Notes under the pieces: model-generated
The model's database searches: none
Seen by the model: only the letters and a program-made list of their open reading frames with translations
Told to the model about the DNA's origin: nothing
Shown: one piece after another, positions 1 to 39,432 of the stretch
Layout: every line of letters starts with the position of its first letter
Numbering within the stretch: position 1 is the first letter of the stretch
Source: Shigella phage ESh23
Length of the DNA: 40,156 nt
Direction: 5' to 3' (one strand)
Sequence record: ON528733
Position numbers and translations under genes: made by a program

Positions 1-518
1 AGGCCAAGGCTGAGGGTGCTGCCATCGACGCTCAGAACAGACAGGCTCAGGAGATGATTAAGCAGATGAACTACTCTGACGCCAACCTCACTATGCAGGA
101 ACGAGACCTTAAGGAGCAACAGGTAGCTGAGCTTACCGAGACAACTCTGAATGGTATTCGCAATCAGGGCATGGTCCGTGCAGCAGTGGCTGAGTCTGGT
201 CTTGAAGGCAACTCCATGAAACGCATTGAGCGCTCAGTGGAAGGCGACACCGTGAAAGAACGTGCTGGCATCACCGAAAGTTACAACCGCGACTATGCGG
301 CTATCTTCGGGAACCGTATTGCCAACATCGAGAACACCAAGTCTGCCATCAAGGGTCAGGCCAAAATCATCAAGACCAGCCCTCTGGCTCACGCACTTAA
401 TGTCACCTCTGCTGGTATGCAGGGCTACATGGCTGGGGAATCTCTGGCTGCGTCTAAGCCGTCTGGCGGTGCTGCTCCAATTAGTGCTGCTAAAGGCACA
501 CCTACAGGTCATAGCTAA
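1..518 (+). CDS. internal virion protein B (T7 gp14-like), C-terminal part; the N-terminal 23 codons lie at 40087..40156 (circular permutation)
   Basis: ORF is open from window position 1 in the frame of ORF 54..518; joined to 40087..40156 it gives about 195 aa (T7 gp14 is 196 aa); synteny directly upstream of gp15. Confidence 0.8.
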   Translation, partial: AKAEGAAIDAQNRQAQEMIKQMNYSDANLTMQERDLKEQQVAELTETTLNGIRNQGMVRAAVAESGLEGNSMKRIERSVEGDTVKERAGITESYNRDYAAIFGNRIANIENTKSAIKGQAKIIKTSPLAHALNVTSAGMQGYMAGESLAASKPSGGAAPISAAKGTPTGHS

Positions 519-2817: not shown

Positions 2818-5800
2818 ATGGCGACTCGTGGTATTCGCAACAATAACATCGGGAACATTCGTGTTTCCAAAGACCAGTGGGAAGGAGCTACAGGAGACGA
2901 TGGGTCTTTCGTAACGTTCGACACTCCTGACTCTGGCGTCCGCGCTCTGGCGAAGAACCTGATGTCCTACGGTCGCCAAGGCTACGACTCAATCGAGAAG
3001 ATTATCAACCGATGGGCACCACCTAGCGAGAACGACACCCAGTCTTACATCTACTCTGTGGTTGCTGCTACTGGCATCCCGGCGACCCAAAGTATCGACT
3101 TGACGAACCCTGATGTCCTCGCCTCTCTGTCTGAGGCTATCGGCTACCACGAGACTGGTTCCCGGTATGACCCTGAGGTCTACAAGCTCGGAGTCTCTCG
3201 CGCCTTAAGTGGTGCTGGAGGCATCACCACAAAGACCCCACCAGTAAGCGCTAACGTCTTCGACGCTCTCACGGAGGGCTTGAAGTCTAAACCTAAAGTC
3301 GCTCTGGGAGAGAACCTTCCGGGCGTTACTGGTATGAACATCGAAGGTCAGGAACCTGAGGCTCCTAACGAGTCTTTCGGAGAGATGTTCTATAAGTCAA
3401 CTGGCGAGACGCTGGACCAAAGAGCTGACCGCTCTACATGGTTCGGCTTCGGTGGAGCTGCTGAGGCTGAAGTGAAGAACTCTCTGGTTGGCGTGGCTGT
3501 CCGCGCTGGTCAGACTGAGGACTCGCTCGATGTCATTGGCGATGTGTTTAACCCTACCCGCTGGAATAACCACAAGTGGTCCCGCGAGGAGTTAGACCAG
3601 ATTCGTAACGCTGGGGTACTTCCTCAGTATTACGGAGTCATCACTGGTGGTTCGCCTCAGAATCTGACCGAGCTGATTAACTTGGCGCTGGAGAACCAGA
3701 AGTTAGACGCTGAGAAGGCTAAGGCCGGGACTGGCGCTCAACTGGCGGCTGGTGTGATTGGTGCTGGCGTGGACCCACTGACCTATGTTCCTATTGCCGG
3801 ACAGGTAGGTAAAGGCGGTAAGCTGGTTAACAAGATGTTCACCGTGGCTGCTCAGTCTGGTGCGTTGGCTGGCGTGTCTGAGATTGCTCGTACCTCTGTT
3901 GCTGGTGGTGATGCTCACGTTGCCGAGGCAATTATGGGCGGTGCTCTATTCGGTGGTGGCATGACTGCTATCGGGGACGCTCTTGGCAAGGTTCTTGGAA
4001 AGTCGACCAATGAGTTCGCTGGTCCAGCTACACGTCTTGAGGCACGTGAGACTGCTCGCAACGTTGATGGTCAGGACCTGTCGCGTCTACCAATCCGTGA
4101 AGGAGAGGAGACCTTCAGTCACCAAGGCGTTAAGTTTGCTGACGTTCCTAACGAGCCGGGAAGTGTGCGACTGGAAGATGGTTCAATCCTGATTGGCGAG
4201 AACCCACTGAACCCTAAGACACGCCAAGTCTTCGACGAGGTGATTGAGCCTGAACGTGCTGCTGCTGGTGTAAACCTTGGTGGACTTACCGAGATTGGCT
4301 TGAAGCTCTTGAGGTCTGAGAACCCTGAGATTCGCGGACTTGCCGCTGACTTGGTGCGTTCCCCTACAGGTATGCAGTCAGGTGCGAGCGGGAAGATTGG
4401 GACTACAGCGTCAGACGTATTCGAGCGACTTCGTGCAGTGGACCATCGGTTCTACAACGACATCGACGATGCGGTGACTGAGGCCCTGAAGGACCCGTAC
4501 TTCCAGACCAACTTCAACCGTGACACTGGGGCTTTCCGTCAGGACATCTACCAGCGTGTGGCTTTGGCTATCGAGGACGGAAGCGGGAACCTGAAGTCTG
4601 AGCTGACTCCGGGCGAACTGAAGGTCTACGACCTGCTGAAGAACCAGTTCGACGCTAAGCGTGAGATGATGGAGAACCCTGCGATGTTCGGTCGGGCGGA
4701 CGCTAAGACCATCTTCCCCGGCAGCCGCTTCAAGGGGACATACGTTCCTCACGTCTACAGCAACCAGATGAAGGAGCTGTACATCAAGGAGCTTGGAAGC
4801 CCTGAGGCGCTGCAAGAAGCAATCAAGAAGTCGTGGCTCACGAGCTATGCGTCAAGACCTGAGGTCAAAGCTCGGGTGGATGAGGCCCTGATGGAAGCTG
4901 ACCCTAATCTGACTCCAGAAGGACTTGCGGCTGCGGTGGATAAGTACGCCAATGATAAGGCTTACGGTATCTCTCACACCGACCTATTCGAGCGCTCGTC
5001 TGTCATGGAAGAGAACATCAACGGTCTGGTGGGTCTGGAGAACAACAACTTCCTTGAGGCCCGTAACCTGTTCGATAGCGATATGTCTATCATCCTGCCA
5101 AACGGTCAACCGTTCAATGTGAACAGTCTCCGTGAGTGGGACATGGATAAGATTGTCCCGGCGTACAACCGTCGAGTCAATGGGGACATTGCTATCATGG
5201 CTGGGACCGGGAAGACCACGAAGGAGATGAAGGACGCCGTAGAGACCCTGATGAACCGTGCTGGTGATGACGGTAAGCTGAAGGGTGAAGTCTCTACATT
5301 GCGTGACACCCTGAAGATTCTGACTGGTCGTGCTCGACGTGATGGTGCAGACGATGCGGCCTTCTCTACTGTGATGCGCACCATGACAGACCTGTCCTTC
5401 TTCGCCAAGAACGCCTATATGGGGGTACAGAACTTGACGGAGATTGGCGGTATGCTGGCCCGTGGTAACGTCCGTGCGATGCTGCATGGTATTCCTATCT
5501 TCCGTGACCTAGCCTTCCGTAGCAAGAAGATGGGAGCCTCGGAGATTAAGGAGCTTCATAACGTGGTCTTCGGAAAGGAGCTTGACGACTCAATCCGTCC
5601 GTCCAAACAGGATGTCATCGACCGCCTGCGAGCGTACAGCGACCTGAGTAAACCAGTAGCTACCGCTTTAGGTTCTGCCAAGTATTACACTGGGGAACTT
5701 GCGGTCCGCTCTCCGTTTACGAAGGTCCTGAACGGGACGACTAACTACCTGCTGGATGCTGGACGTCAAGGCTTCCTGTCTGACATCGTGGAGCACAGCC

Positions 5801-9885: not shown

Positions 9886-10335
9886 ATGCTCGAACTTTTA
9901 CGTAGATGCGCACCTTGGCTGGTGGCAGGACTCCTGTTCTGCTCAGGTTACTGGGTGGCAGACAATAAGTGGGAGGCGAAGGTAAGCAATGAGTACATCA
10001 CGAAACTTGAGGCACGAGAGAATCAACGGGCTGCTGTCCAAGGTGAAATCGACAAAGTGTCAGCAGAGTGGCAAGACAAGATGTCCGCGCTGGAAGGCTC
10101 TACTGATAGGATTATTGCTGACCTTAACCGCGATAACAAGCGGCTGCGCATCCGAGTCAAACCCACCAGTGGCACAGTCCAGACTGACGGTCGATGCGTC
10201 ATTGATGGTTACGCCGAACTTGACGAACGAGATGCTAAGCGTCTTATCGCCATCGGACTGAAAGGAGACGAATGGATTAAGGCCCTCCAGAAGACCGTGA
10301 GAGCCATGCAGCAAGAGAAGGAGGTGAAACCTTGA
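9886..10335 (+). CDS. i-spanin (Rz-like, T7 gp18.5-like), 149 aa
   Basis: N-terminal TM segment plus coiled-coil; matches recalled T7 gp18.5 ([24 protein letters not shown]). Confidence 0.85.
9989..10261 (+). CDS. o-spanin (Rz1-like, T7 gp18.7-like) embedded in the +1 frame of the i-spanin gene; true start probably internal
   Basis: Embedded ORF with lipoprotein-type signal and lipobox LTAITSGC. Confidence 0.55.
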   Translation: MSTSRNLRHERINGLLSKVKSTKCQQSGKTRCPRWKALLIGLLLTLTAITSGCASESNPPVAQSRLTVDASLMVTPNLTNEMLSVLSPSD

Positions 10336-12095
10336 GTCAAGACTTAGCGGCGCGTCAGGCGCTTATGACTGCACGTATGAAGGCAGACTTCGTGTTCTTC
10401 CTGTTCGTTCTGTGGAAAGCTCTGTCACTTCCGGTCCCGACTCGCTGTCAGATTGACATGGCGAAGAAACTATCGGCTGGGGACAACAGGCGTTTCATCT
10501 TGCAGGCGTTCCGTGGTATCGGGAAGTCCTTCATTACGTGCGCCTTCGTGGTCTGGAAGCTATGGAATAACCCGGACTTGAAGTTCATGATTGTGTCGGC
10601 CTCAAAGGAACGAGCCGATGCTAACTCCATCTTCATCAAGCGTATCATCGACCTGATGCCTCAGCTCCAAGAGTTGAAGCCTAAGCAGGGACAGCGAGAC
10701 GCAGTAATCAGCTTTGACGTAGGGCCTGCCAAGCCTGACCACTCTCCGTCGGTTAAGTCCGTTGGTATCACTGGTCAGTTAACTGGTAGTCGTGCTGACA
10801 TCCTGATTGCCGATGACGTAGAGGTCCCCGGTAACTCAGCTACTCAGGCGGCTCGTGACCGACTGTCAGAGCTGGTGAAGGAGTTCGACGCAATCCTGAA
10901 GCCGGGTGGTACGGTTATCTATCTGGGTACGCCTCAGACCGAGATGACCCTGTATCGACAGCTTGAGGGCCGTGGCTACTCAACTACCATCTGGCCTGCT
11001 CGCTATCCACGCGATGAGAAGGACTGGAAGTCTTATGGCGACCGTCTGGCTCCGATGCTTCAGGCCGAGCTTGAGTCTGACCCTGAGGGCTACTACTGGA
11101 GACCTACCGATGAGGTTCGCTTCGATGATGAGGACCTGAAGGAACGTGAGCTGTCCTACGGTAAGGCTGGCTTCGCTCTACAGTTCATGCTCAACCCGAA
11201 CCTAGGGGATGCCGAGAAGTACCCTCTGAAGCTGCGTGACCTTATCGTAGCGGACTTGGACCCTGAGTCTAGCCCTATGGTCTACCAGTGGCTTCCGAAC
11301 CTTCAGAACAAGCGTGAGGACGTTCCTAACGTTGGACTCATGGGTGACGCCTACCACACGTATCAGACTGTAGGTTCTGCCTTCAGCTCGTACACCCAGA
11401 AGATTCTGGTCATTGACCCTAGTGGTCGTGGTAAGGATGAGACCGGGTATGCGGTGCTGTATCAACTCAACGGCTACATCTTCGTGATGGAAGCTGGTGG
11501 TATGCGTGGTGGTTACGAGGACTCAACGCTGGAAGCTCTGGCGAAGATTGGTCGCAAGTGGAAGATTAACGAGTACGTCATTGAGGGTAACTTCGGTGAT
11601 GGCATGTATCTCGAATTATTCAAGCCTGTAGCGGCCCGTATTCACCCGGCAGCAGTGACTGAGGTCAAGAGTAAGGGCCAGAAGGAACTCCGCATCTGCG
11701 ACGTTCTGGAGCCTATCATGGGGTCTCACCGACTCATCGTGAACTCCTCGACCATTGTGTCTGACTACCAGACTGCCGCTGATAATGATGGAGTCCGCAA
11801 CCCTATCTACTCACTGTTCTATCAGATGACCCGTATAAGCCGTGAACGTGGAGCCTTGGCTCACGATGACCGACTCGATGCTCTGGCTATCGGTGTGCAG
11901 TTCTTCGTAGAGTCTATGGCGAAGGATGCCGTAAAGGGACAGCGTGAAGTAACCGAGGAGTGGCTGGAGGAACAGATGGAGGACCCACGGAAAGGCTTTA
12001 AGTCCATCGAGACTGACTATTGGGACAATGGGGTCCGGGTCCAGTTCAATACAGATGACGACTTGGGCTTAGGGTCCTACGTCCAGTTCCACTAA
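10332..12095 (+). CDS. terminase large subunit (T7 gp19-like), 587 aa if TTG start
   Basis: Near-collinear with recalled T7 gp19 ([23 protein letters not shown], [41 protein letters not shown]); AAGGAGGTGA SD before TTG at 10332 (alternative ATG at 10368). Confidence 0.93.
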
Positions 12096-12190
12096 CCTAA
12101 TGAATACCTACGCATGAAATCTGCATGTATAAGCAGTAAGTAGTGCGTTAGGTATCTCTCGTAACTTAATGATTCTAAAGGGAAATGGAC

Positions 12191-12212
12191 TTAACTATCA
12201 CTATAGGGAAGA
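12191..12212 (+). promoter_or_regulatory. phage RNAP promoter (phiOR position): TTAACTATCACTATAGGGAAGA
   Basis: Conserved promoter motif downstream of the terminase gene. Confidence 0.7.
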
Positions 12213-12384
12213 CCCCCGGTTGCTTATAGTAAAGACTCAATGAATAAGCATATGCACACTTTATGCAAGACCTTAGGAGGCAGACTCCTGAGTTCTTACC
12301 TAAGGTTAGCACCGATGGAGAGGGTGATTGTAATCATCACACCCTCATAACTTAAGTAGACCCTAAGCGACAGGAGGTATGTAG

Positions 12385-12534
12385 CATGGGTAAGACCAAA
12401 GCTGTTCTCAAAGCTCTGGCGACCAATAGAGCTACATACAGGTTTCTTGCTGCTGTTCTACTTGCTGCTGGCGTTACTGCTGGAAGTCAGTGGGTCGGGT
12501 GGGTCGAGACTCTCGTATGTACTCTGGTGTCTGA
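12385..12534 (+). CDS. small protein, T7 gp19.5-like, 49 aa
   Basis: 49 codons with GGAGG SD; contains TYRFL motif as in recalled T7 gp19.5 (49 aa); last gene before the genome end region. Confidence 0.55.
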
Positions 12535-12577
12535 GTGCCATTAACGCAATCATGGTAACAATCAACGAAAGACGGAC

Positions 12578-12618
12578 CTAAGGTCAGTTCATAGCTGACG
12601 CTACTCTACTGACCTTAG
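12578..12618. repeat. inverted repeat (11 bp arms CTAAGGTCAGT / ACTGACCTTAG, 19 bp spacer) downstream of gp19.5
   Basis: Read directly from sequence; arms are exact reverse complements. Confidence 0.6.
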
Positions 12619-12781
12619 CTACTGTAGTCAAGGACTTTAGGTAACACCTTAAGAGAAGCTCACTTAGGGTCATCCTACTTACTGGTCTATCCTAGTGTCG
12701 CCTGACCTACGGTCCTTGACCTACAGTAGCTGGGTCCTACAGTAGGGACGATGAGTTTTGGACCAAAAGTTTGAGACCACA

Positions 12782-12960
12782 TCTCACAGTTCAAGAACCT
12801 CAAGTCTCCCCATAGGCCTCTTTAAGTCTCGACCAAAGGCCCTACCCTAGACCTTCGGTCTAAACCTCAAGTCATTGACGTCTGGTCAGGACCAAAAGTC
12901 TACCTCAAGGGCCTATATCTTGTGGTTGGGACGATTGGTCGGGACTATATGTTGTGTCTC
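12782..12960. repeat. candidate terminal repeat (collapsed single copy) beginning with the T7/T3-type left-end signature TCTCACAGTTCAAGAACC; extent approximate
   Basis: TCTCACAGT matches the first bases of the T7 genome; region is non-coding with short repeats (CCTCAAGTC x3, GACCAAAAGT x2); boundaries cannot be fixed from one copy. Confidence 0.35.
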
Positions 12961-13000
12961 CGAGTCCCTATCTGTATCAGCCTAAGGTCCTCACCTCAAG

Positions 13001-13065
13001 TCTCACTACCTACAGTCAATCCACTGGTAACGGGGCTACCTACAGTCTCACTACCTACAGTCAAT
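13001..13065. repeat. two perfect 20-bp direct repeats TCTCACTACCTACAGTCAAT (13001..13020 and 13046..13065) within a CCTACAGT-rich array
   Basis: Read directly; CCTACAGT-type motif recurs at least six times between 12700 and 13090, analogous to the CCTAAAG repeats of the T7 left end. Confidence 0.8.
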
Positions 13066-13290
13066 AGACACCTTGTTGACCTACAGTTTATCAGAGTCCT
13101 AAGGTCTAGACTCACAGGTTATCACATCCGGTCCGTTTAGCAGTCAGAGACCATAGCTGACTAGGGTTATCGTTGTTGGTGTCTGCCAACTGGACTCTTA
13201 TTATCCATAGTCCTGACCTAAAGTCAATCATCTGTAGTCATCCTTATATAGTCACTGGACTACTGTATAAATTAACATGATAAATAGTTG

Positions 13291-13319
13291 TTGACAGTAG
13301 GTCTAACTTTTGGTTTAAT
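13291..13319 (+). promoter_or_regulatory. host sigma70-type early promoter (T7 A1-like): TTGACA-17 nt-TTTAAT
   Basis: TTGACAGTAGGTCTAACTTTTGGTTTAAT resembles T7 A1 (TTGACTTAAAGTCTAACCTATAGGATACT). Confidence 0.5.
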
Positions 13320-13440
13320 AGCTTCCGTCAACACGACACGGCAACAACCGGATAGTGAAGACGCCGGGTCGGTCCGGTTAAGTAGTCAGCCTGTAAGACA
13401 TACGAACAACAGGCAACCGACAAGAAGGTGAAACAAACGC

Positions 13441-13470
13441 TTGACAAGATGTGCCGACTTAAAGTAGTAT
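13441..13470 (+). promoter_or_regulatory. host sigma70-type early promoter (T7 A3-like): TTGACA-18 nt-TAGTAT
   Basis: AAGGTGAAACAAACGCTTGACAAGATG...TAGTATGTACCACATCAACACGAC parallels the T7 A3 region (AAGGTGAAACAAAACGGTTGACAACATG...TACGATGTACCACATGAAACGAC). Confidence 0.55.
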
Positions 13471-13589
13471 GTACCACATCAACACGACGGTGAGGCCCAA
13501 CACTGAAACGGGATAGCGAGGCGACGACAGCTAAGCGAATGTTCTTTAACAATCTGGATAACTCTTAATGTGCGCCGATAGCGACTAAC

Positions 13590-13665
13590 TACAGGGCCTT
13601 GAGTCTACCGCGAGACGGGCTTGACTTGAGCGACTCAGGGTCCTGACTGATAGTCACTAACAACT
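13590..13665 (+). promoter_or_regulatory. structured leader element upstream of the first early gene (R0.3 position); shares the CCTGACTGAT-AGTCACT 3' motif with the elements at 14465 and 14905
   Basis: Position and partial match to the T7 R0.3 region (CTTTAACAATCTGG...); fold not verified. Confidence 0.3.
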
Positions 13666-13679
13666 GAGAGGATATAACT

Positions 13680-14186
13680 ATGGAACGTAACACTAACGCA
13701 TACTATGACCTGCTGGCTGCAACCGTTGAGCTGTTCAACGAGCGTATTCAGCAAGACGAAATAGCTGAAGGTGATGACTACAGCGATGCGCTGCATGAAG
13801 TCGTAGACGGTCAGGTTCCGCACTATTACAGCGAGATTTTCACGGTGATGGCTGCTGATGGTATTGACCACGAGTTCGAAGACTCTGGGCTGATGCCTGA
13901 TACCAAGGACGTAACGCGTATACTGCAAGCTCGCATCTATGAGGCACTGTATAACGATGTGTACAATAGCTCGGATGTAGTCTGGTTCGAGGCTGAAGAG
14001 AGCGACGAGGAGGACGAATACTGGGTGGTTGACGCTAAGACAGGTGCATTCATTGAGCAAGCTGTATCACTTGAGGTCGCTACTGCATGTGCCAAGGACC
14101 ACTATGCGATAGGTCGCCGCCTGAAAGTCGAAGACATCAACGACAACGTAGTGTTCGACCCTGCGGCTGCTGAGGACTGCGAGTGA
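13680..14186 (+). CDS. ocr: Ocr (T7 gp0.3-like anti-restriction DNA mimic) with ~50 aa C-terminal extension, 168 aa
   Basis: Core VPHYYSEIFTVMAADGIDHEFEDSGLMPDTKDVTRILQARIYE is near-identical to recalled T7 Ocr; acidic; first gene after the early promoters. Confidence 0.9.
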   Translation: MERNTNAYYDLLAATVELFNERIQQDEIAEGDDYSDALHEVVDGQVPHYYSEIFTVMAADGIDHEFEDSGLMPDTKDVTRILQARIYEALYNDVYNSSDVVWFEAEESDEEDEYWVVDAKTGAFIEQAVSLEVATACAKDHYAIGRRLKVEDINDNVVFDPAAAEDCE

Positions 14187-37062: not shown

Positions 37063-39432
37063 ATGCCACTTTACACGCAATCAATCAAGAACCTGAAGGG
37101 TGGCATTAGCCAACAGCCGGACATCCTGAGGTTCTCTGACCAAGGTGAACAGCAGATTAACGGCTGGTCATCCGAGAGTGATGGGCTTCAGAAGCGACCA
37201 CCGACCGTCTGGAAGAAAAGACTTTCAGCCGTGAACTGGGTCATCCCGAACAACGCTAAGTTCCACCTGATTAACAGGGACGAGAACGAGCAGTATTACA
37301 TCGTCTTCACAGGAAAGGAAATCATGGTCTTTGACCTTGAGGGGAACCAGTACGCTGTTTCAGGTGTAACGGACTACGTTAACACTTCCAAGCCGCGTGA
37401 CGACATCCGGGTCATTACAGTAGCTGACTACACGTTCGTGGTGAATCGCCGCACTGTGGTAGCTCAGGGTTCCACTAAAGCTAACCCTACGTACAACATG
37501 AAGAACCGCGCACTGATTAACCTTCGTGGTGGTCAGTACGGTAGATTGCTGAAAGTAGGGATTAATGGTGGGACAAAGGTTGGGCACCAGCTTCCTCCGG
37601 GAGATAACGCCAAAGATGACCCACCTAAAGTCGACGCTCAGGCTATCGGCAAGGCGTTAGTGGACCTGCTTGTCGTGGCCTATCCGAACTACACGTTCAC
37701 CCTTGGGTCTGGCTACATCGAGATTAAAGCCCCAGCAGGGACCAACATCAACTCGGTGGAGACTGAGGATGGTTATGCCAACCAGCTAATCAATGCTGTA
37801 CTTGATACTGTGCAGACTATCAGTAAGCTACCTCTGGCGGCACCTGAAGGCTACATCATCCGTATTCAAGGTGAGACCAACAGCTCAGCCGATGAGTATT
37901 TCGTGAAGTATGACTCAGCGAAGAAGACTTGGCGCGAGACTGTGGAGCCGGGTACTGTAACGGGATTCGACGCCTCAACCATGCCACACGCTTTGGTCAG
38001 ACAGGCAGATGGGAACTTTACGTTCCAGACCCTAGACTGGACTGAGCGTGGAGCTGGTAACGACGAGACCAACCCGATGCCGAGCTTCGTGAATTCAACG
38101 ATTAACGATGTGTTCTTCTATCGTAACCGATTAGGGTTCCTCTCCGGTGAGAACGTCATTATGTCCCGGTCCGCTGGATACTTTGCGTTCTTCCCTAAGA
38201 GCGTGGCGACCCTCAGTGATGATGACCCGATTGATGTGGCTGTGAGTCACCCTCGAATCTCCATCCTGAAGTATGCTGTACCGTTCGCAGAACAGCTACT
38301 GCTGTGGTCTGATGAGGTGCAGTTCGTGATGACCAGCTCCGGGGTACTGACCGCCAAGTCCATCCAACTAGATGTTGGCTCTGAGTTCGCTGTTAGTGAT
38401 AATGCGCGACCGTTCGCCATTGGACGTTCAGTCTTCTTCGCTGCCCCTCGCGGCTCGTTCACCAGTATTAACCGTTACTTTGCGGTGGCTGACGTTACGG
38501 ACGTGAAGGACGCAGACGATACGACCGGGCATGTGCTGTCCTACATTCCTAATGGAGTATTCGACATCCAAGGGTCCTCTACTGAGAACTTCATCACCGT
38601 GTCTACTGAGGGCGCTCCGAACAAGCTGTTCATCTACAAGTTCCTCTTCAAGGATGGCGTACAGCTTCAAGCCTCGTGGTCACACTGGGAGCTGGAGCAG
38701 GGCGAGCAGATTATGGCCTCAGCCTGTATCGGGTCCGCTATGTACATCGTGCGTAAGCATGGCTATGGCGTGGACTTGGAGAAGCTGGAGTTCATCAAGG
38801 AGACTGTGGACATCGCTGGCGAACCATGCCGCCTGCATCTTGACGGCAAAACCACTATGGTCATCCCGACTAACGCATTCAACCCTAACACATACACCTC
38901 GTCCTTCGACGTTGGCGCTGCCTATGGTGGAGTTTTCCCACCAGCAGGGAAGTACGTCATGGTAGACTCCAGTGGGCGATTCGTCCAACTGCCAGATACC
39001 GTATGGTCCAGCACTCGGTGGGTGACTGTGAAGGGGGACTGGTCAGGCAAGACAGTGTTCCTTGGTCGCGTCTATAAGTTCACCTACGCCTTCTCTCGGT
39101 TCCTCATTAAGTATGAAGACCAGAACGGGACGGTGACGGAAGACTCCGGTCGACTTCAGCTTCGCCGCGCTTGGGTGAACTATCAGCGAACTGGTGCTCT
39201 GGTGATGCGGGTCGTCAACCAGCACCGTGAGTTCCTGAACACGCTGAACGGCTACAAGCTGGGCCTACAGGACATCGGTCGGGTAAACATTGGTGACGGT
39301 CAGTTCAGGTTCCCAATGAACGGAGATGCTCTACACACTCGGTTAATCCTTGAGTCAGATTATCCGACCCCAGTGTCTATCGTTGGTTGCGGCTGGGAGG
39401 CTTCATATGCCCGTAAAGCCAAAGCTATCTAA
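37063..39432 (+). CDS. tail tubular protein B (T7 gp12-like), 789 aa
   Basis: QSIKNLKGGISQQPDILR, NGWSSE, GLQKRPP, HLINRDExEQYY, VTVADYTFVVNR, MPHALVR, SINDVFFxRNRLGFLSGEN, RLQLRRAWVNY, IxGCGWE. Confidence 0.96.
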   Translation: MPLYTQSIKNLKGGISQQPDILRFSDQGEQQINGWSSESDGLQKRPPTVWKKRLSAVNWVIPNNAKFHLINRDENEQYYIVFTGKEIMVFDLEGNQYAVSGVTDYVNTSKPRDDIRVITVADYTFVVNRRTVVAQGSTKANPTYNMKNRALINLRGGQYGRLLKVGINGGTKVGHQLPPGDNAKDDPPKVDAQAIGKALVDLLVVAYPNYTFTLGSGYIEIKAPAGTNINSVETEDGYANQLINAVLDTVQTISKLPLAAPEGYIIRIQGETNSSADEYFVKYDSAKKTWRETVEPGTVTGFDASTMPHALVRQADGNFTFQTLDWTERGAGNDETNPMPSFVNSTINDVFFYRNRLGFLSGENVIMSRSAGYFAFFPKSVATLSDDDPIDVAVSHPRISILKYAVPFAEQLLLWSDEVQFVMTSSGVLTAKSIQLDVGSEFAVSDNARPFAIGRSVFFAAPRGSFTSINRYFAVADVTDVKDADDTTGHVLSYIPNGVFDIQGSSTENFITVSTEGAPNKLFIYKFLFKDGVQLQASWSHWELEQGEQIMASACIGSAMYIVRKHGYGVDLEKLEFIKETVDIAGEPCRLHLDGKTTMVIPTNAFNPNTYTSSFDVGAAYGGVFPPAGKYVMVDSSGRFVQLPDTVWSSTRWVTVKGDWSGKTVFLGRVYKFTYAFSRFLIKYEDQNGTVTEDSGRLQLRRAWVNYQRTGALVMRVVNQHREFLNTLNGYKLGLQDIGRVNIGDGQFRFPMNGDALHTRLILESDYPTPVSIVGCGWEASYARKAKAI

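What the first reader, a model, noticed from the sequence alone, without database searches (positions are those of the whole stretch)
12545..13270. Concatemer junction / terminal repeat region with left-end signature and repeat arrays
A 1.1-kb non-coding stretch follows gp19.5. It contains the motif TCTCACAGTTCAAGAACC (12782), matching the first bases of the T7 and T3 genomes, which marks the probable physical left end and the start of a collapsed terminal repeat. It also has arrays of short repeats (CCTCAAGTC x3, CCTACAGT x6 or more) and two perfect 20-bp direct repeats (13001 and 13046). These are the likely packaging and end-processing signals.
Basis: partly seen in the sequence, partly recalled or inferred. 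Interest (0 to 1): 0.4.

Follow-up and report, generated by a model that had tools for sequence, protein, structure and literature searches.

The report
T7-type concatemer junction, collapsed terminal repeat
This stretch is the ordinary genome-end region of a K1F-like (T7-family) phage: one collapsed copy of its 188-bp terminal repeat, flanked by the short-repeat arrays typical of this family. The same element is already mapped in close relatives.

Summary

- **What the window is.** It is a complete, circularly permuted Kayfunavirus (K1F-like, Studiervirinae) genome.
- **Left end.** TCTCACAGTTCAAGAACC occurs once, at 12782. It is base 1 of the K1F, Ro45lw, SH4 and Pisces records.
- **The repeat.** By alignment to relatives with mapped ends, the direct terminal repeat (TR) is 12782-12969, 188 bp, present here as one collapsed copy. 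The relatives are IME-SF2/SFPH2 (read-start pile-ups, 190 bp), SH4/SH5 (run-off sequencing, 190 bp) and Pisces (PhageTerm, 190 bp).
- **Right edge.** The repeat abuts ATCTGTA (12970). This is the K1F-group version of ATCTGTT, the T7 class II RNA-polymerase pause signal at the concatemer junction.
- **Short repeats.** CCTNNRGT occurs 15 times on the + strand in 726 bp, against a median of 1 for windows of that size. The copies lie on both sides of the repeat, as in T7. The 20-bp repeats are exact over 22 bp.
- **Promoter.** A phage promoter at 12187-12210 (phiOR position) reads into the junction.

Whether the short-repeat arrays are themselves packaging signals is untested. Small extras are a repeat-internal palindrome (12847-12861) that covaries across genera, and the genus-specific ATCTGTA. 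This is known biology and of low interest.

The parts
12187..12210 (+). Phage RNA-polymerase promoter between genes 19 and 19.5 (same relative position as T7 phiOR). The predicted start near 12206 reads through gene 19.5 into the junction.
   Evidence: It scores 36.0 against a weight matrix built from the window's 12 promoters (range 29.5-37.4, all on the + strand; this site is itself one of the 12, so the score is partly circular). Its core ATCACTATAGGGA is an exact match. T7 phiOR likewise lies between genes 19 and 19.5.
12386..12544 (+). Gene 19.5, the last gene before the junction.
   Evidence: 52-aa ORF. phrog_2193, E=1.6e-23. Annotated as gp19.5 in PE3-1.
12574..12756 (.). Left-flank repeat block, at the same position as the short repeats left of the right-hand repeat in T7. 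It holds CCTNNRGT copies at 12577, 12706, 12720 and 12736 (+), two more on the - strand near 12583 and 12641, and nested inverted repeats.
   Evidence: Folded as single-stranded DNA, 12560-12800 gives z = -4.1 against shuffles. Identity across 11 K1F-group junctions is 0.87-1.00.
12757..12781 (+). Conserved flank immediately left of the left-end cut site (TTTTGGACCAAAAGTTTGAGACCACA). It includes the palindrome TTTTGG-A-CCAAAA.
   Evidence: Nearly invariant in 11 junction sequences.
12782..12969 (+). Direct terminal repeat, 188 bp, present once in the window. A virion genome would carry it at both ends, which predicts a virion DNA of 40,344 bp.
   Evidence: Alignment to annotated or mapped repeats: Ro45lw 190 bp (checked at both record ends), SH4 190/191, Pisces 190 (PhageTerm), IME-SF2/SFPH2 190 (read-start pile-ups), T7 160, T3 231. 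All begin TCTCA(C/T)AG and end GTCNCT directly before ATCTGT.
12847..12861 (.). Palindrome inside the repeat, TAGACC-TTC-GGTCTA (repeat positions 66-80). It sits at the same distance from the left end as T7 GTCAACC-TTC-GGTTGAC.
   Evidence: The stem is kept with changes on both sides across T7-, T3-, KP32- and K1F-like repeats. Two pairs show 2-3 pair types. The covariation score is 0.282 against 0.117 in shuffles, with 0/500 shuffles as high.
12970..12976 (+). ATCTGTA, abutting the right edge of the repeat. It is the K1F-group counterpart of ATCTGTT, the T7 class II pause/termination signal at the concatemer junction.
   Evidence: CTATCTGTAT is unique in the window. The motif sits at the repeat edge in 11/11 GenBank junctions. 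In IMG/VR hits, ATCTGTA was the first ATCTGT beyond base 120 in 6 K1F-like sequences, against ATCTGTT in 35 T7-, T3- and KP32-like sequences. PE3-1 annotates CTATCTGT as 'concatemeric junction'. The T7 signal is described.
12981..13225 (+). Right-flank repeat array, at the same position as the short repeats right of the left-hand repeat in T7. Eight CCTNNRGT copies lie at 12981, 12994, 13009, 13039, 13054, 13080, 13098 and 13217. It includes the exact 22-bp duplication at 12999-13020 and 13044-13065.
   Evidence: Copy number varies among relatives: PE3-1, RDN8.1 and IME278 have extra units.
13200..13227 (-). Leftward sigma-70-like promoter (TTGACT-16-GATAAT) pointing at the repeat. T7 and T3 have a leftward promoter A0 in the corresponding region.
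   Evidence: Consensus scan, 10 of 12 matches. A0 is annotated in T7 and T3. This is a consensus match only.
13291..13319 (+). Putative first early host-RNA-polymerase promoter (A1-like): TTGACA-17-TTTAAT.
   Evidence: Read directly from the sequence. Conserved 0.92-0.95 among relatives. The scan tool did not call it because it requires A at position 2 of the -10 hexamer.
13441..13470 (+). Second early promoter (A2-like): TTGACA-18-TAGTAT.
   Evidence: 10 of 12 matches.

Best explanation
**What it is.** This is the concatemer junction of a K1F-like (Kayfunavirus) T7-family phage, seen in an assembly that was circularised through its terminal repeat.

**Ends.** In virion DNA the genome would start at 12782 (TCTCACAG...) and end at 12969 (...GAGTCCCT). 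The 188-bp segment 12782-12969 would be present at both ends.

**How it works, on the T7 model.**
1. Replication gives head-to-tail concatemers in which neighbouring genomes share one copy of the repeat.
2. The phage RNA polymerase starts at the promoter at 12187-12210 and transcribes gene 19.5 and the junction. It is expected to pause a few bases after ATCTGTA (12970-12976).
3. The terminase (gp18/gp19; gp19 = 10332-12095) with a prohead recognises sites in or next to the repeat and cuts at its two edges.
4. The repeat is duplicated by DNA synthesis, so that each packaged genome keeps a copy at both ends.

**Shown here.**
- The identity and boundaries of the repeat, by homology to relatives with mapped ends.
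- The single-copy, circularly permuted state of the window.
- The enrichment, strand bias and T7-like layout of the CCTNNRGT arrays.
- The promoter and the pause-type motif.

**Inferred, not shown here.**
- Pausing at ATCTGTA.
- Terminase recognition.
- Any role of the short-repeat arrays or of the palindrome inside the repeat.
For: **Taxonomy and gene order.**
- 223 phage records match the junction, and those whose records I opened are classed as Kayfunavirus.
- The order is terminase, promoter, gene 19.5, non-coding stretch, Ocr-like gene 0.3.

**Left end.**
- The motif is unique in the window.
- It equals base 1 of five K1F-group records.

**Right end.**
- Every annotated or verified repeat ends GTCNCT|ATCTGT: T7 at 160, T3 at 231, Ro45lw at 190, SH4 at 191, Pisces at 190.
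- SH4/SH5 ends were mapped by run-off sequencing of virion DNA, giving 190 bp (PMC4925675).
- IME-SF2 ends were mapped by read-start pile-ups at 4426 and 4615, giving 190 bp (PMC3896407). On the SFPH2 record, which has the same length, these fall exactly on the homologous boundaries.

**Single collapsed copy.** The window ends are contiguous in SH5 and Dev2.

**Repeat arrays.**
- The layout matches T7, with arrays to the left of, inside and to the right of the repeat, and a copy at repeat position 17 in both.

**Conservation.** The junction is conserved across 11 relatives.

**Promoters.** 12 phage promoters were found, all on the + strand, one at 12187 and none between the repeat and gene 0.3.

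**Literature.**
- The T7 class II signal at the concatemer junction.
- Terminase recognition and cutting at PacB and PacC, and collapse of terminal repeats in assemblies.
Against: - No reads or virion DNA exist for this phage, so the ends rest on homology (junction 85-95% identical to mapped relatives). The boundary could be off by 1-3 bases: the Ro103C3lw record annotates 4..193, and SH4 is given as 190 in the paper but 191 in the record.
- That IME-SF2 and SFPH2 are the same assembly is inferred from equal length, the same host species and the exact fit of the coordinates. Neither source states it.
- The motif here is ATCTGTA, not ATCTGTT. For T7 RNA polymerase any base change in the 7-mer is reported to abolish class II termination. 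Pausing by this phage's own polymerase is therefore an assumption.
- A second ATCTGTA lies at 13230.
- No phiOL-type phage promoter is present, so the T7 layout is not copied in full.
Confidence: 0.93

Rival explanations
1. The terminal repeat is as described, but the flanking CCTNNRGT arrays and the 22-bp duplication are not packaging or end-processing signals. On this reading they are unstable by-products of slippage or recombination next to the ends. Alternatively they serve another step, such as genome entry, replication or recombination at the ends, or binding of a host or phage protein.
For: - Copy number and exact sequence of the right-hand array vary freely among close relatives. PE3-1 has many CAACAACCATAGGTCT units, and RDN8.1 and IME278 carry extra units.
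- By contrast, the two cut-site neighbourhoods are nearly invariant.
- The one paper I found that names the T7 packaging signal calls it PacB plus PacC and does not mention the arrays.
Against: - Arrays of the same motif class, in the same orientation and on both sides of the repeat, are kept in T7 and in the K1F group, which argues for selection.
- The left-hand block is 0.87-1.00 conserved.
Confidence: 0.4
2. The physical ends lie elsewhere, or the phage packages by headful with permuted ends. The TCTCACAG motif would then be only a conserved internal sequence.
For: - The window itself shows no discontinuity at 12782.
- Many relatives are deposited as permuted or 'circular' records.
Against: - Four independent end determinations in the genus agree on this site: run-off sequencing, read-start pile-ups, PhageTerm, and a record with both repeat copies.
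- The terminase is the T7 type (phrog_38, E=8e-132).
- Permuted records are a known assembly artefact for this family.
Confidence: 0.02
3. Part of the stretch codes for small proteins, as some relatives annotate (for example 'hypothetical protein' over the repeat in SFPH2, GW1 and ST17).
For: - ORFs of 36-72 aa exist at 12875-12985, 12922-13140 and 12954-13067.
- Several GenBank records annotate such ORFs.
Against: - There is no PHROG match for the 72-aa and 37-aa ORFs.
- They run through repeat arrays whose copy number changes by indels among relatives.
- Indels in the C-run near 12808 and in the arrays would shift the frames.
- The homologous T7 and T3 regions carry no annotated genes.
Confidence: 0.03

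Closest known systems
Direct terminal repeats and junctions of the K1F group (Kayfunavirus): K1F, SH4/SH5, IME-SF2/SFPH2, Ro45lw, Pisces, PE3-1
   Same: - The first 29 bases are identical.
- The boundary sequences are the same: ...ACCACA|TCTCACAG and GTCNCT|ATCTGTA.
- The repeat length is about the same: 188 bp here, 190 bp in SH4, SH5, IME-SF2, Ro45lw and Pisces, 183 bp in SH3, and 179 bp reported for K1F.
- The flanking arrays, the phiOR-position promoter and the early promoters are the same.
   Different: - The repeat is 2 bp shorter, through one-base differences in C runs.
- The variable block in the middle of the repeat (12880-12915) carries an allele shared only with EP1, and partly with Ro103C3lw.
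- The exact number of array units differs.
- Gene 0.3 downstream is Ocr-like rather than the SAM hydrolase of the closest junction relatives.
Phage T7 concatemer junction (160-bp terminal repeat, CCTAAAG short repeats on both sides, class II pause site, phiOR)
   Same: - The position is the same, between gene 19.5 and the early promoters.
- The left end reads TCTCACAGT.
- The repeat ends GTCCCT|ATCTGT.
- A CCTNNRG copy sits at repeat position 17.
- The palindrome NNNACC-TTC-GGTNNN sits at repeat position 66.
- Arrays in one orientation lie on both flanks.
- The gap from gene 19.5 to the repeat is 237 bp here and 239 bp in T7.
- A phage promoter lies about 0.7 kb upstream of the pause motif.
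   Different: - The repeat is 188 bp here and 160 bp in T7.
- The array unit is CCT(A/C)(A/C)(A/G)GT, mostly CCTACAGT or CCTCAAGT, rather than CCTAAAG.
- The motif is ATCTGTA, not ATCTGTT.
- There is no phiOL-type phage promoter to the right of the repeat.
- The leftward host-type promoter sits about 230 bp from the repeat here, against 64 bp in T7.
Phage T3 terminal repeat (231 bp) and its packaging sites
   Same: - The first 18 bases match 17/18.
- The right boundary reads GTCCCT|ATCTGTT.
- The palindrome TTAACC-TTC-GGTTAA is present.
   Different: - The repeat is longer.
- The left end reads TCTCATAG.
- The T3 leftward promoter A0 lies inside the repeat.

Membership tests
T7-family (Studiervirinae) concatemer junction with short direct terminal repeat | It lies between the last late gene (19.5, downstream of terminase gene 19) and the early host-polymerase promoters and gene 0.3. 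| tested here: met
   gp19 10332-12095 (phrog_38, E=8e-132), gp19.5 12386-12544 (phrog_2193), Ocr-like gene 0.3 at 13680-14186 (phrog_2568), sigma-70-like promoters at 13291 and 13441.
T7-family (Studiervirinae) concatemer junction with short direct terminal repeat | The left genome end begins TCTCA(C/T)AGT. | tested here: met
   One copy at 12782. It aligns to base 1 of the T7, T3, K1F, Ro45lw, SH4 and Pisces records.
T7-family (Studiervirinae) concatemer junction with short direct terminal repeat | The repeat ends GTCNCT, directly followed by the class II pause-type motif ATCTGTT. | tested here: inconclusive
   GAGTCCCT|ATCTGTA at 12969|12970. The position and 6 of 7 bases are met. The seventh base is A, as in all K1F-group relatives examined, against T in T7-, T3- and KP32-like phages. 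Whether the A variant pauses the cognate polymerase is untested.
T7-family (Studiervirinae) concatemer junction with short direct terminal repeat | Arrays of a short CCTNNRG-type repeat, in one orientation, lie on both sides of the repeat. | tested here: met
   15 + strand copies against 3 on the - strand in 726 bp, with a genome median of 1 per window. The layout parallels T7.
T7-family (Studiervirinae) concatemer junction with short direct terminal repeat | A phage RNA-polymerase promoter upstream (phiOR position) is oriented into the junction. | tested here: met
   12187-12210, weight-matrix score 36.0, + strand, 764 nt upstream of ATCTGTA. The site was one of the 12 used to build the matrix.
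T7-family (Studiervirinae) concatemer junction with short direct terminal repeat | The repeat is physically present at both ends of virion DNA (two-fold read coverage, read-start pile-ups at the two boundaries). | not testable with these tools
   No reads or virion DNA for this phage. This has been shown for relatives: IME-SF2, SH4/SH5 and Pisces by PhageTerm.
T7-family (Studiervirinae) concatemer junction with short direct terminal repeat | The sequence is needed for terminase-dependent packaging (PacB/PacC function). | not testable with these tools
   The literature gives only a statement for T7. I could not retrieve the positions of PacB and PacC from the papers held.

The most novel reading that the evidence does not exclude
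The most novel reading that the evidence leaves open has two parts.

1. The K1F group uses a changed junction signal, ATCTGTA instead of the 'strictly conserved' ATCTGTT. That would imply one of two things. Either K1F-type RNA polymerases have a different class II pause specificity, or the conserved ATCTGT at the repeat edge is really read by the terminase rather than by the polymerase.
2. The covarying palindrome inside the repeat (12847-12861), at a fixed 66 bp from the left end in four genera, may be a functional hairpin or a symmetric protein site needed for end formation.

Neither point is established in the papers I could read.
Probability: 0.25. Interest if true: 0.3.

Novelty: already known. 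Interest (0 to 1): 0.12.

Why it matters
The main value is practical. The analysis fixes the true genome ends: start 12782, end 12969, a 188-bp repeat, and a predicted virion DNA of 40,344 bp. The record can therefore be re-oriented and annotated correctly. It also shows that the ORFs called over this stretch in some relatives are probably spurious.

Scientifically it adds little. It is one more example of a well-described T7-family architecture. Two small comparative points could guide experiments on how T7-family ends are recognised: the genus-specific ATCTGTA, and the covarying palindrome inside the repeat.

Tried and rejected
- **Rfam.** A scan of 12100-13720 at E<=1 gave no match, so no known RNA family explains the conservation.
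- **phiOL-type promoter.** A weight-matrix scan between the repeat and gene 0.3 gave a best score of 6.2, against at least 29.5 for real promoters. None is present.
- **Coding ORFs in the repeat region.** The PHROG search gave no match for 12922-13140 or 12954-13067.
- **Intrinsic terminators.** One weak site (12734-12749) was found, no more than the 0.9 expected by chance. I did not pursue it.
- **IME278 and P7124.** I hoped these records started at the true ends. They start just upstream of the first annotated gene instead and were used only as junction sequences.
- **PacB/PacC and the hairpin intermediate.** Literature searches for the exact T7/T3 positions and for the 'hairpin' processing intermediate found only one secondary description. 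The primary papers (Chung & Hinkle 1990; Fujisawa & Morita 1997) are not in the library. I therefore did not assign PacB or PacC to coordinates.
- **Hairpin CCCC-ATA-GG near 12808.** T7 has CCCCC-ATA-GGGGG here, but the stem is not kept in the K1F group or in T3. Rejected as a conserved structure.

Full report
**1. What the window is**

The 1.6 kb around the finding matches 223 phage records, and those whose records I opened are classed as Kayfunavirus (K1F-like Studiervirinae). The best matches are SFPH2, EP1, SFP21A/B and vB_EholP_HHH, at 91-95% identity.

The local gene order is:
- large terminase gp19, 10332-12095 (phrog_38, E=8e-132);
- a phage promoter;
- gp19.5, 12386-12544 (phrog_2193);
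- 1135 bp without a credible gene;
- an Ocr-like gene 0.3, 13680-14186 (phrog_2568).

Joining the last 300 and the first 300 bases of the window gives a single uninterrupted match inside the internal-virion-protein genes of SH5 (97.5%) and Dev2. The window is therefore a whole genome, circularly permuted. Anything that is terminal in the virion is internal here.

**2. Checking the observation**

- TCTCACAGTTCAAGAACC starts at 12782. It is unique even with three mismatches allowed, and none is expected by chance.
- CCTCAAGTC occurs at 12798, 12865 and 12994. CCTACAGT occurs at 12720, 12736, 13009, 13039, 13054 and 13080. These are 3 of 4 and 6 of 7 of all + strand copies in the 40-kb window.
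- The general motif CCTNNRGT occurs 15 times on the + strand and 3 times on the - strand in 12545-13270. Equal-sized windows elsewhere have a median of 1 and a 95th percentile of 3, and the maximum is at this place.
- The direct repeats are exact for 22 bp (12999 and 13044) and extend to 28 bp at 93%.
- The match to the first 18 bases of T7 is 14/18 and of T3 17/18.

All items are confirmed.

**3. The terminal repeat and its boundaries**

The records of K1F, Ro45lw, SH4, Pisces and Ro103C3lw begin with the same 29 bases that start at 12782.

Annotated repeats are 190 bp (Ro45lw, Pisces by PhageTerm, Ro103C3lw as 4..193) and 191 bp (SH4). I checked that the last 190 bases of Ro45lw equal its first 190, and that the T7 repeat is 160 bp.

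In T7 (160), T3 (231), Ro45lw, SH4 and Pisces the repeat ends GTC(C/T)CT and is directly followed by ATCTGT. The window reads GAGTCCCT|ATCTGTATCAG at 12969|12970.

Two published experiments back these ends:
- SH4/SH5 ends were found by run-off sequencing of virion DNA, giving 190 bp (PMC4925675).
- IME-SF2, a 40,387-bp Shigella phage, had unique termini by read-start pile-ups at positions 4426 and 4615, giving 190 bp (PMC3896407).

The SFPH2 record is also 40,387 bp. On it those two positions fall exactly at ACCACA|TCTCACAG and GTCGCT|ATCTGTA. These are the homologues of window 12781|12782 and 12969|12970. That IME-SF2 and SFPH2 are the same assembly is my inference from the equal length and the exact fit.

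The repeat here is therefore 12782-12969, 188 bp, and the virion DNA is predicted to be 40,344 bp. That assemblers delete one copy of the repeat and linearise such genomes in the middle is a described artefact for this family (PMC10438801).

**4. Anatomy of the junction**

Twelve phage-polymerase promoters (consensus ACTWAACTATCACTATAGGRA) are all on the + strand. One lies at 12187-12210, between genes 19 and 19.5 as phiOR does in T7, and 764 nt upstream of ATCTGTA. No such promoter lies between the repeat and gene 0.3, so there is no phiOL equivalent.

ATCTGTT is the core of the class II pause/termination signal of T7 RNA polymerase. The only natural example is at the T7 concatemer junction, and the polymerase stops 6-8 nt downstream. 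The window and 11 of 11 K1F-group junctions have ATCTGTA there. In T7-group sequences pulled from IMG/VR by a pattern scan, the first ATCTGT beyond base 120 read ATCTGTA in 6 K1F-like sequences and ATCTGTT in 35 T7-, T3- and KP32-like sequences.

The motif layout parallels T7. Positions are relative to base 1 of the repeat.

| | Left of the repeat | Inside the repeat | Right of the repeat |
|---|---|---|---|
| Window | -204 to -45 | 17 to 122 | 200 to 436 |
| T7 | -171 to -43 | 17 to 137 | 175 to 332 |

An alignment of 11 K1F-group junctions shows:
- near-invariant blocks at 12600-12660, 12760-12815 (spanning the left cut site) and 12840-12880;
- a conserved right edge;
- one variable block in the middle of the repeat (12880-12915);
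- copy-number changes in the right-hand array.

To the right lie a leftward sigma-70-like promoter (13227 to 13200; compare A0 of T7 and T3) and two rightward early promoters (13291, 13441).

**5. How it most likely works**

By homology with T7, the sequence of events would be:
1. Concatemers share one repeat between neighbouring genomes.
2. Transcription from the 12187 promoter crosses the junction and pauses after 12970-12976.
3. The terminase recognises its sites and cuts at 12781|12782 and 12969|12970.
4. The repeat is duplicated, so that both ends keep a copy.

Steps 1, 3 and 4 are as described. The link between polymerase pausing and concatemer processing is from my own knowledge of the T7 literature (Lyakhov et al. 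1997; Zhang & Studier 2004), which I could not read here.

The boundaries and the layout are shown here. Pausing, terminase recognition and any role for the arrays are inferred. I give about 0.4 to the view that the arrays are not themselves packaging signals, because their copy number drifts among close relatives.

**6. Side observations**

A palindrome inside the repeat, TAGACC-TTC-GGTCTA (12847-12861), sits 66 bp from the left end, exactly where T7 has GTCAACC-TTC-GGTTGAC. Across T7-, T3-, KP32- and K1F-like repeats the two outer variable pairs change on both sides: A-T, T-A and C-G at one pair, and A-T and G-C at the other. 83.5% of cells are paired. The covariation score is 0.282 against 0.117 in shuffles (0/500 as high), and it collapses when the partners are slid by one to three columns.

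Two caveats apply. The three inner pairs were fixed by the search pattern for most sequences, and the sequences fall into a few related groups. A symmetric protein site and a hairpin would give the same pattern.

The block left of the repeat (12574-12756) is rich in inverted repeats, with a DNA fold z of -4.1. The T7 equivalent gives -2.1.

**7. Verdict**

The element is the same one already mapped and annotated in relatives, so it is known biology.

Interest is low. The only mildly new points are the genus-specific ATCTGTA and the covarying palindrome.

Noticed in passing
window 12847-12861: The palindrome TAGACC-TTC-GGTCTA inside the terminal repeat sits at the same distance (66 bp) from the left end as in T7. 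The stem is kept by changes on both sides across four Studiervirinae genera. SFPH2 and Ro103C3lw carry the loop as GAA instead of TTC.
   Followed up: yes
window 12970-12976, and loci L022-L088: The motif at the right edge of the repeat is ATCTGTA in every K1F-like phage examined, but ATCTGTT in T7-, T3- and KP32-like phages. The T7 signal is described as intolerant of any base change.
   Followed up: partly
window 13230-13236: A second ATCTGTA lies 260 bp downstream of the first, inside the conserved CATCTGTAG. It is present in 9 of 11 relatives. Only 2 + strand copies exist in the whole window, and both are in this junction.
   Followed up: partly
window 12574-12756: There is a dense set of nested inverted repeats left of the terminal repeat, for example 11/11 bp at 12578-12588 with 12608-12618, and 12617-12627 with 12721-12731. 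Folded as single-stranded DNA, 12560-12800 gives z = -4.1. The T7 equivalent gives -2.1.
   Followed up: partly
window 13288-13431: A 47-aa ORF matches phrog_30192 (unknown function, E=4.7e-25). However, its TTG start is the first base triplet of the -35 hexamer TTGACA of the putative A1 promoter, and the DNA is 0.92-1.00 conserved. It is likely an annotation artefact built on a conserved early leader, but this was not resolved.
   Followed up: no
window 13680-14186: Gene 0.3 here is Ocr-like and 168 aa long, with an extra C-terminal part relative to the 161-position profile match. The phages closest in the junction (SFPH2, EP1, GW1, IME278) carry a SAM hydrolase as their first gene. The early region is therefore mosaic, and junction conservation drops to about 0.5 from 13600 onward.
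   Followed up: no
window 12880-12915: This is the only poorly conserved block inside the terminal repeat (identity 0.47-0.68). Among the 11 aligned junctions the window shares its allele only with EP1; the Ro103C3lw repeat, aligned separately, carries a partly similar one. This suggests recombinational exchange within the repeat.
   Followed up: no
window 13200-13227 (- strand): A leftward sigma-70-like promoter, TTGACT-16-GATAAT, points toward the terminal repeat. It is reminiscent of promoter A0 of T7 and T3. It is a consensus match only.
   Followed up: no
locus L006 (Ro45lw 38486-39028): Ro45lw carries an HNH endonuclease gene between genes 19 and 19.5. It is absent from the window, where only the promoter region lies between them.
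   Followed up: no
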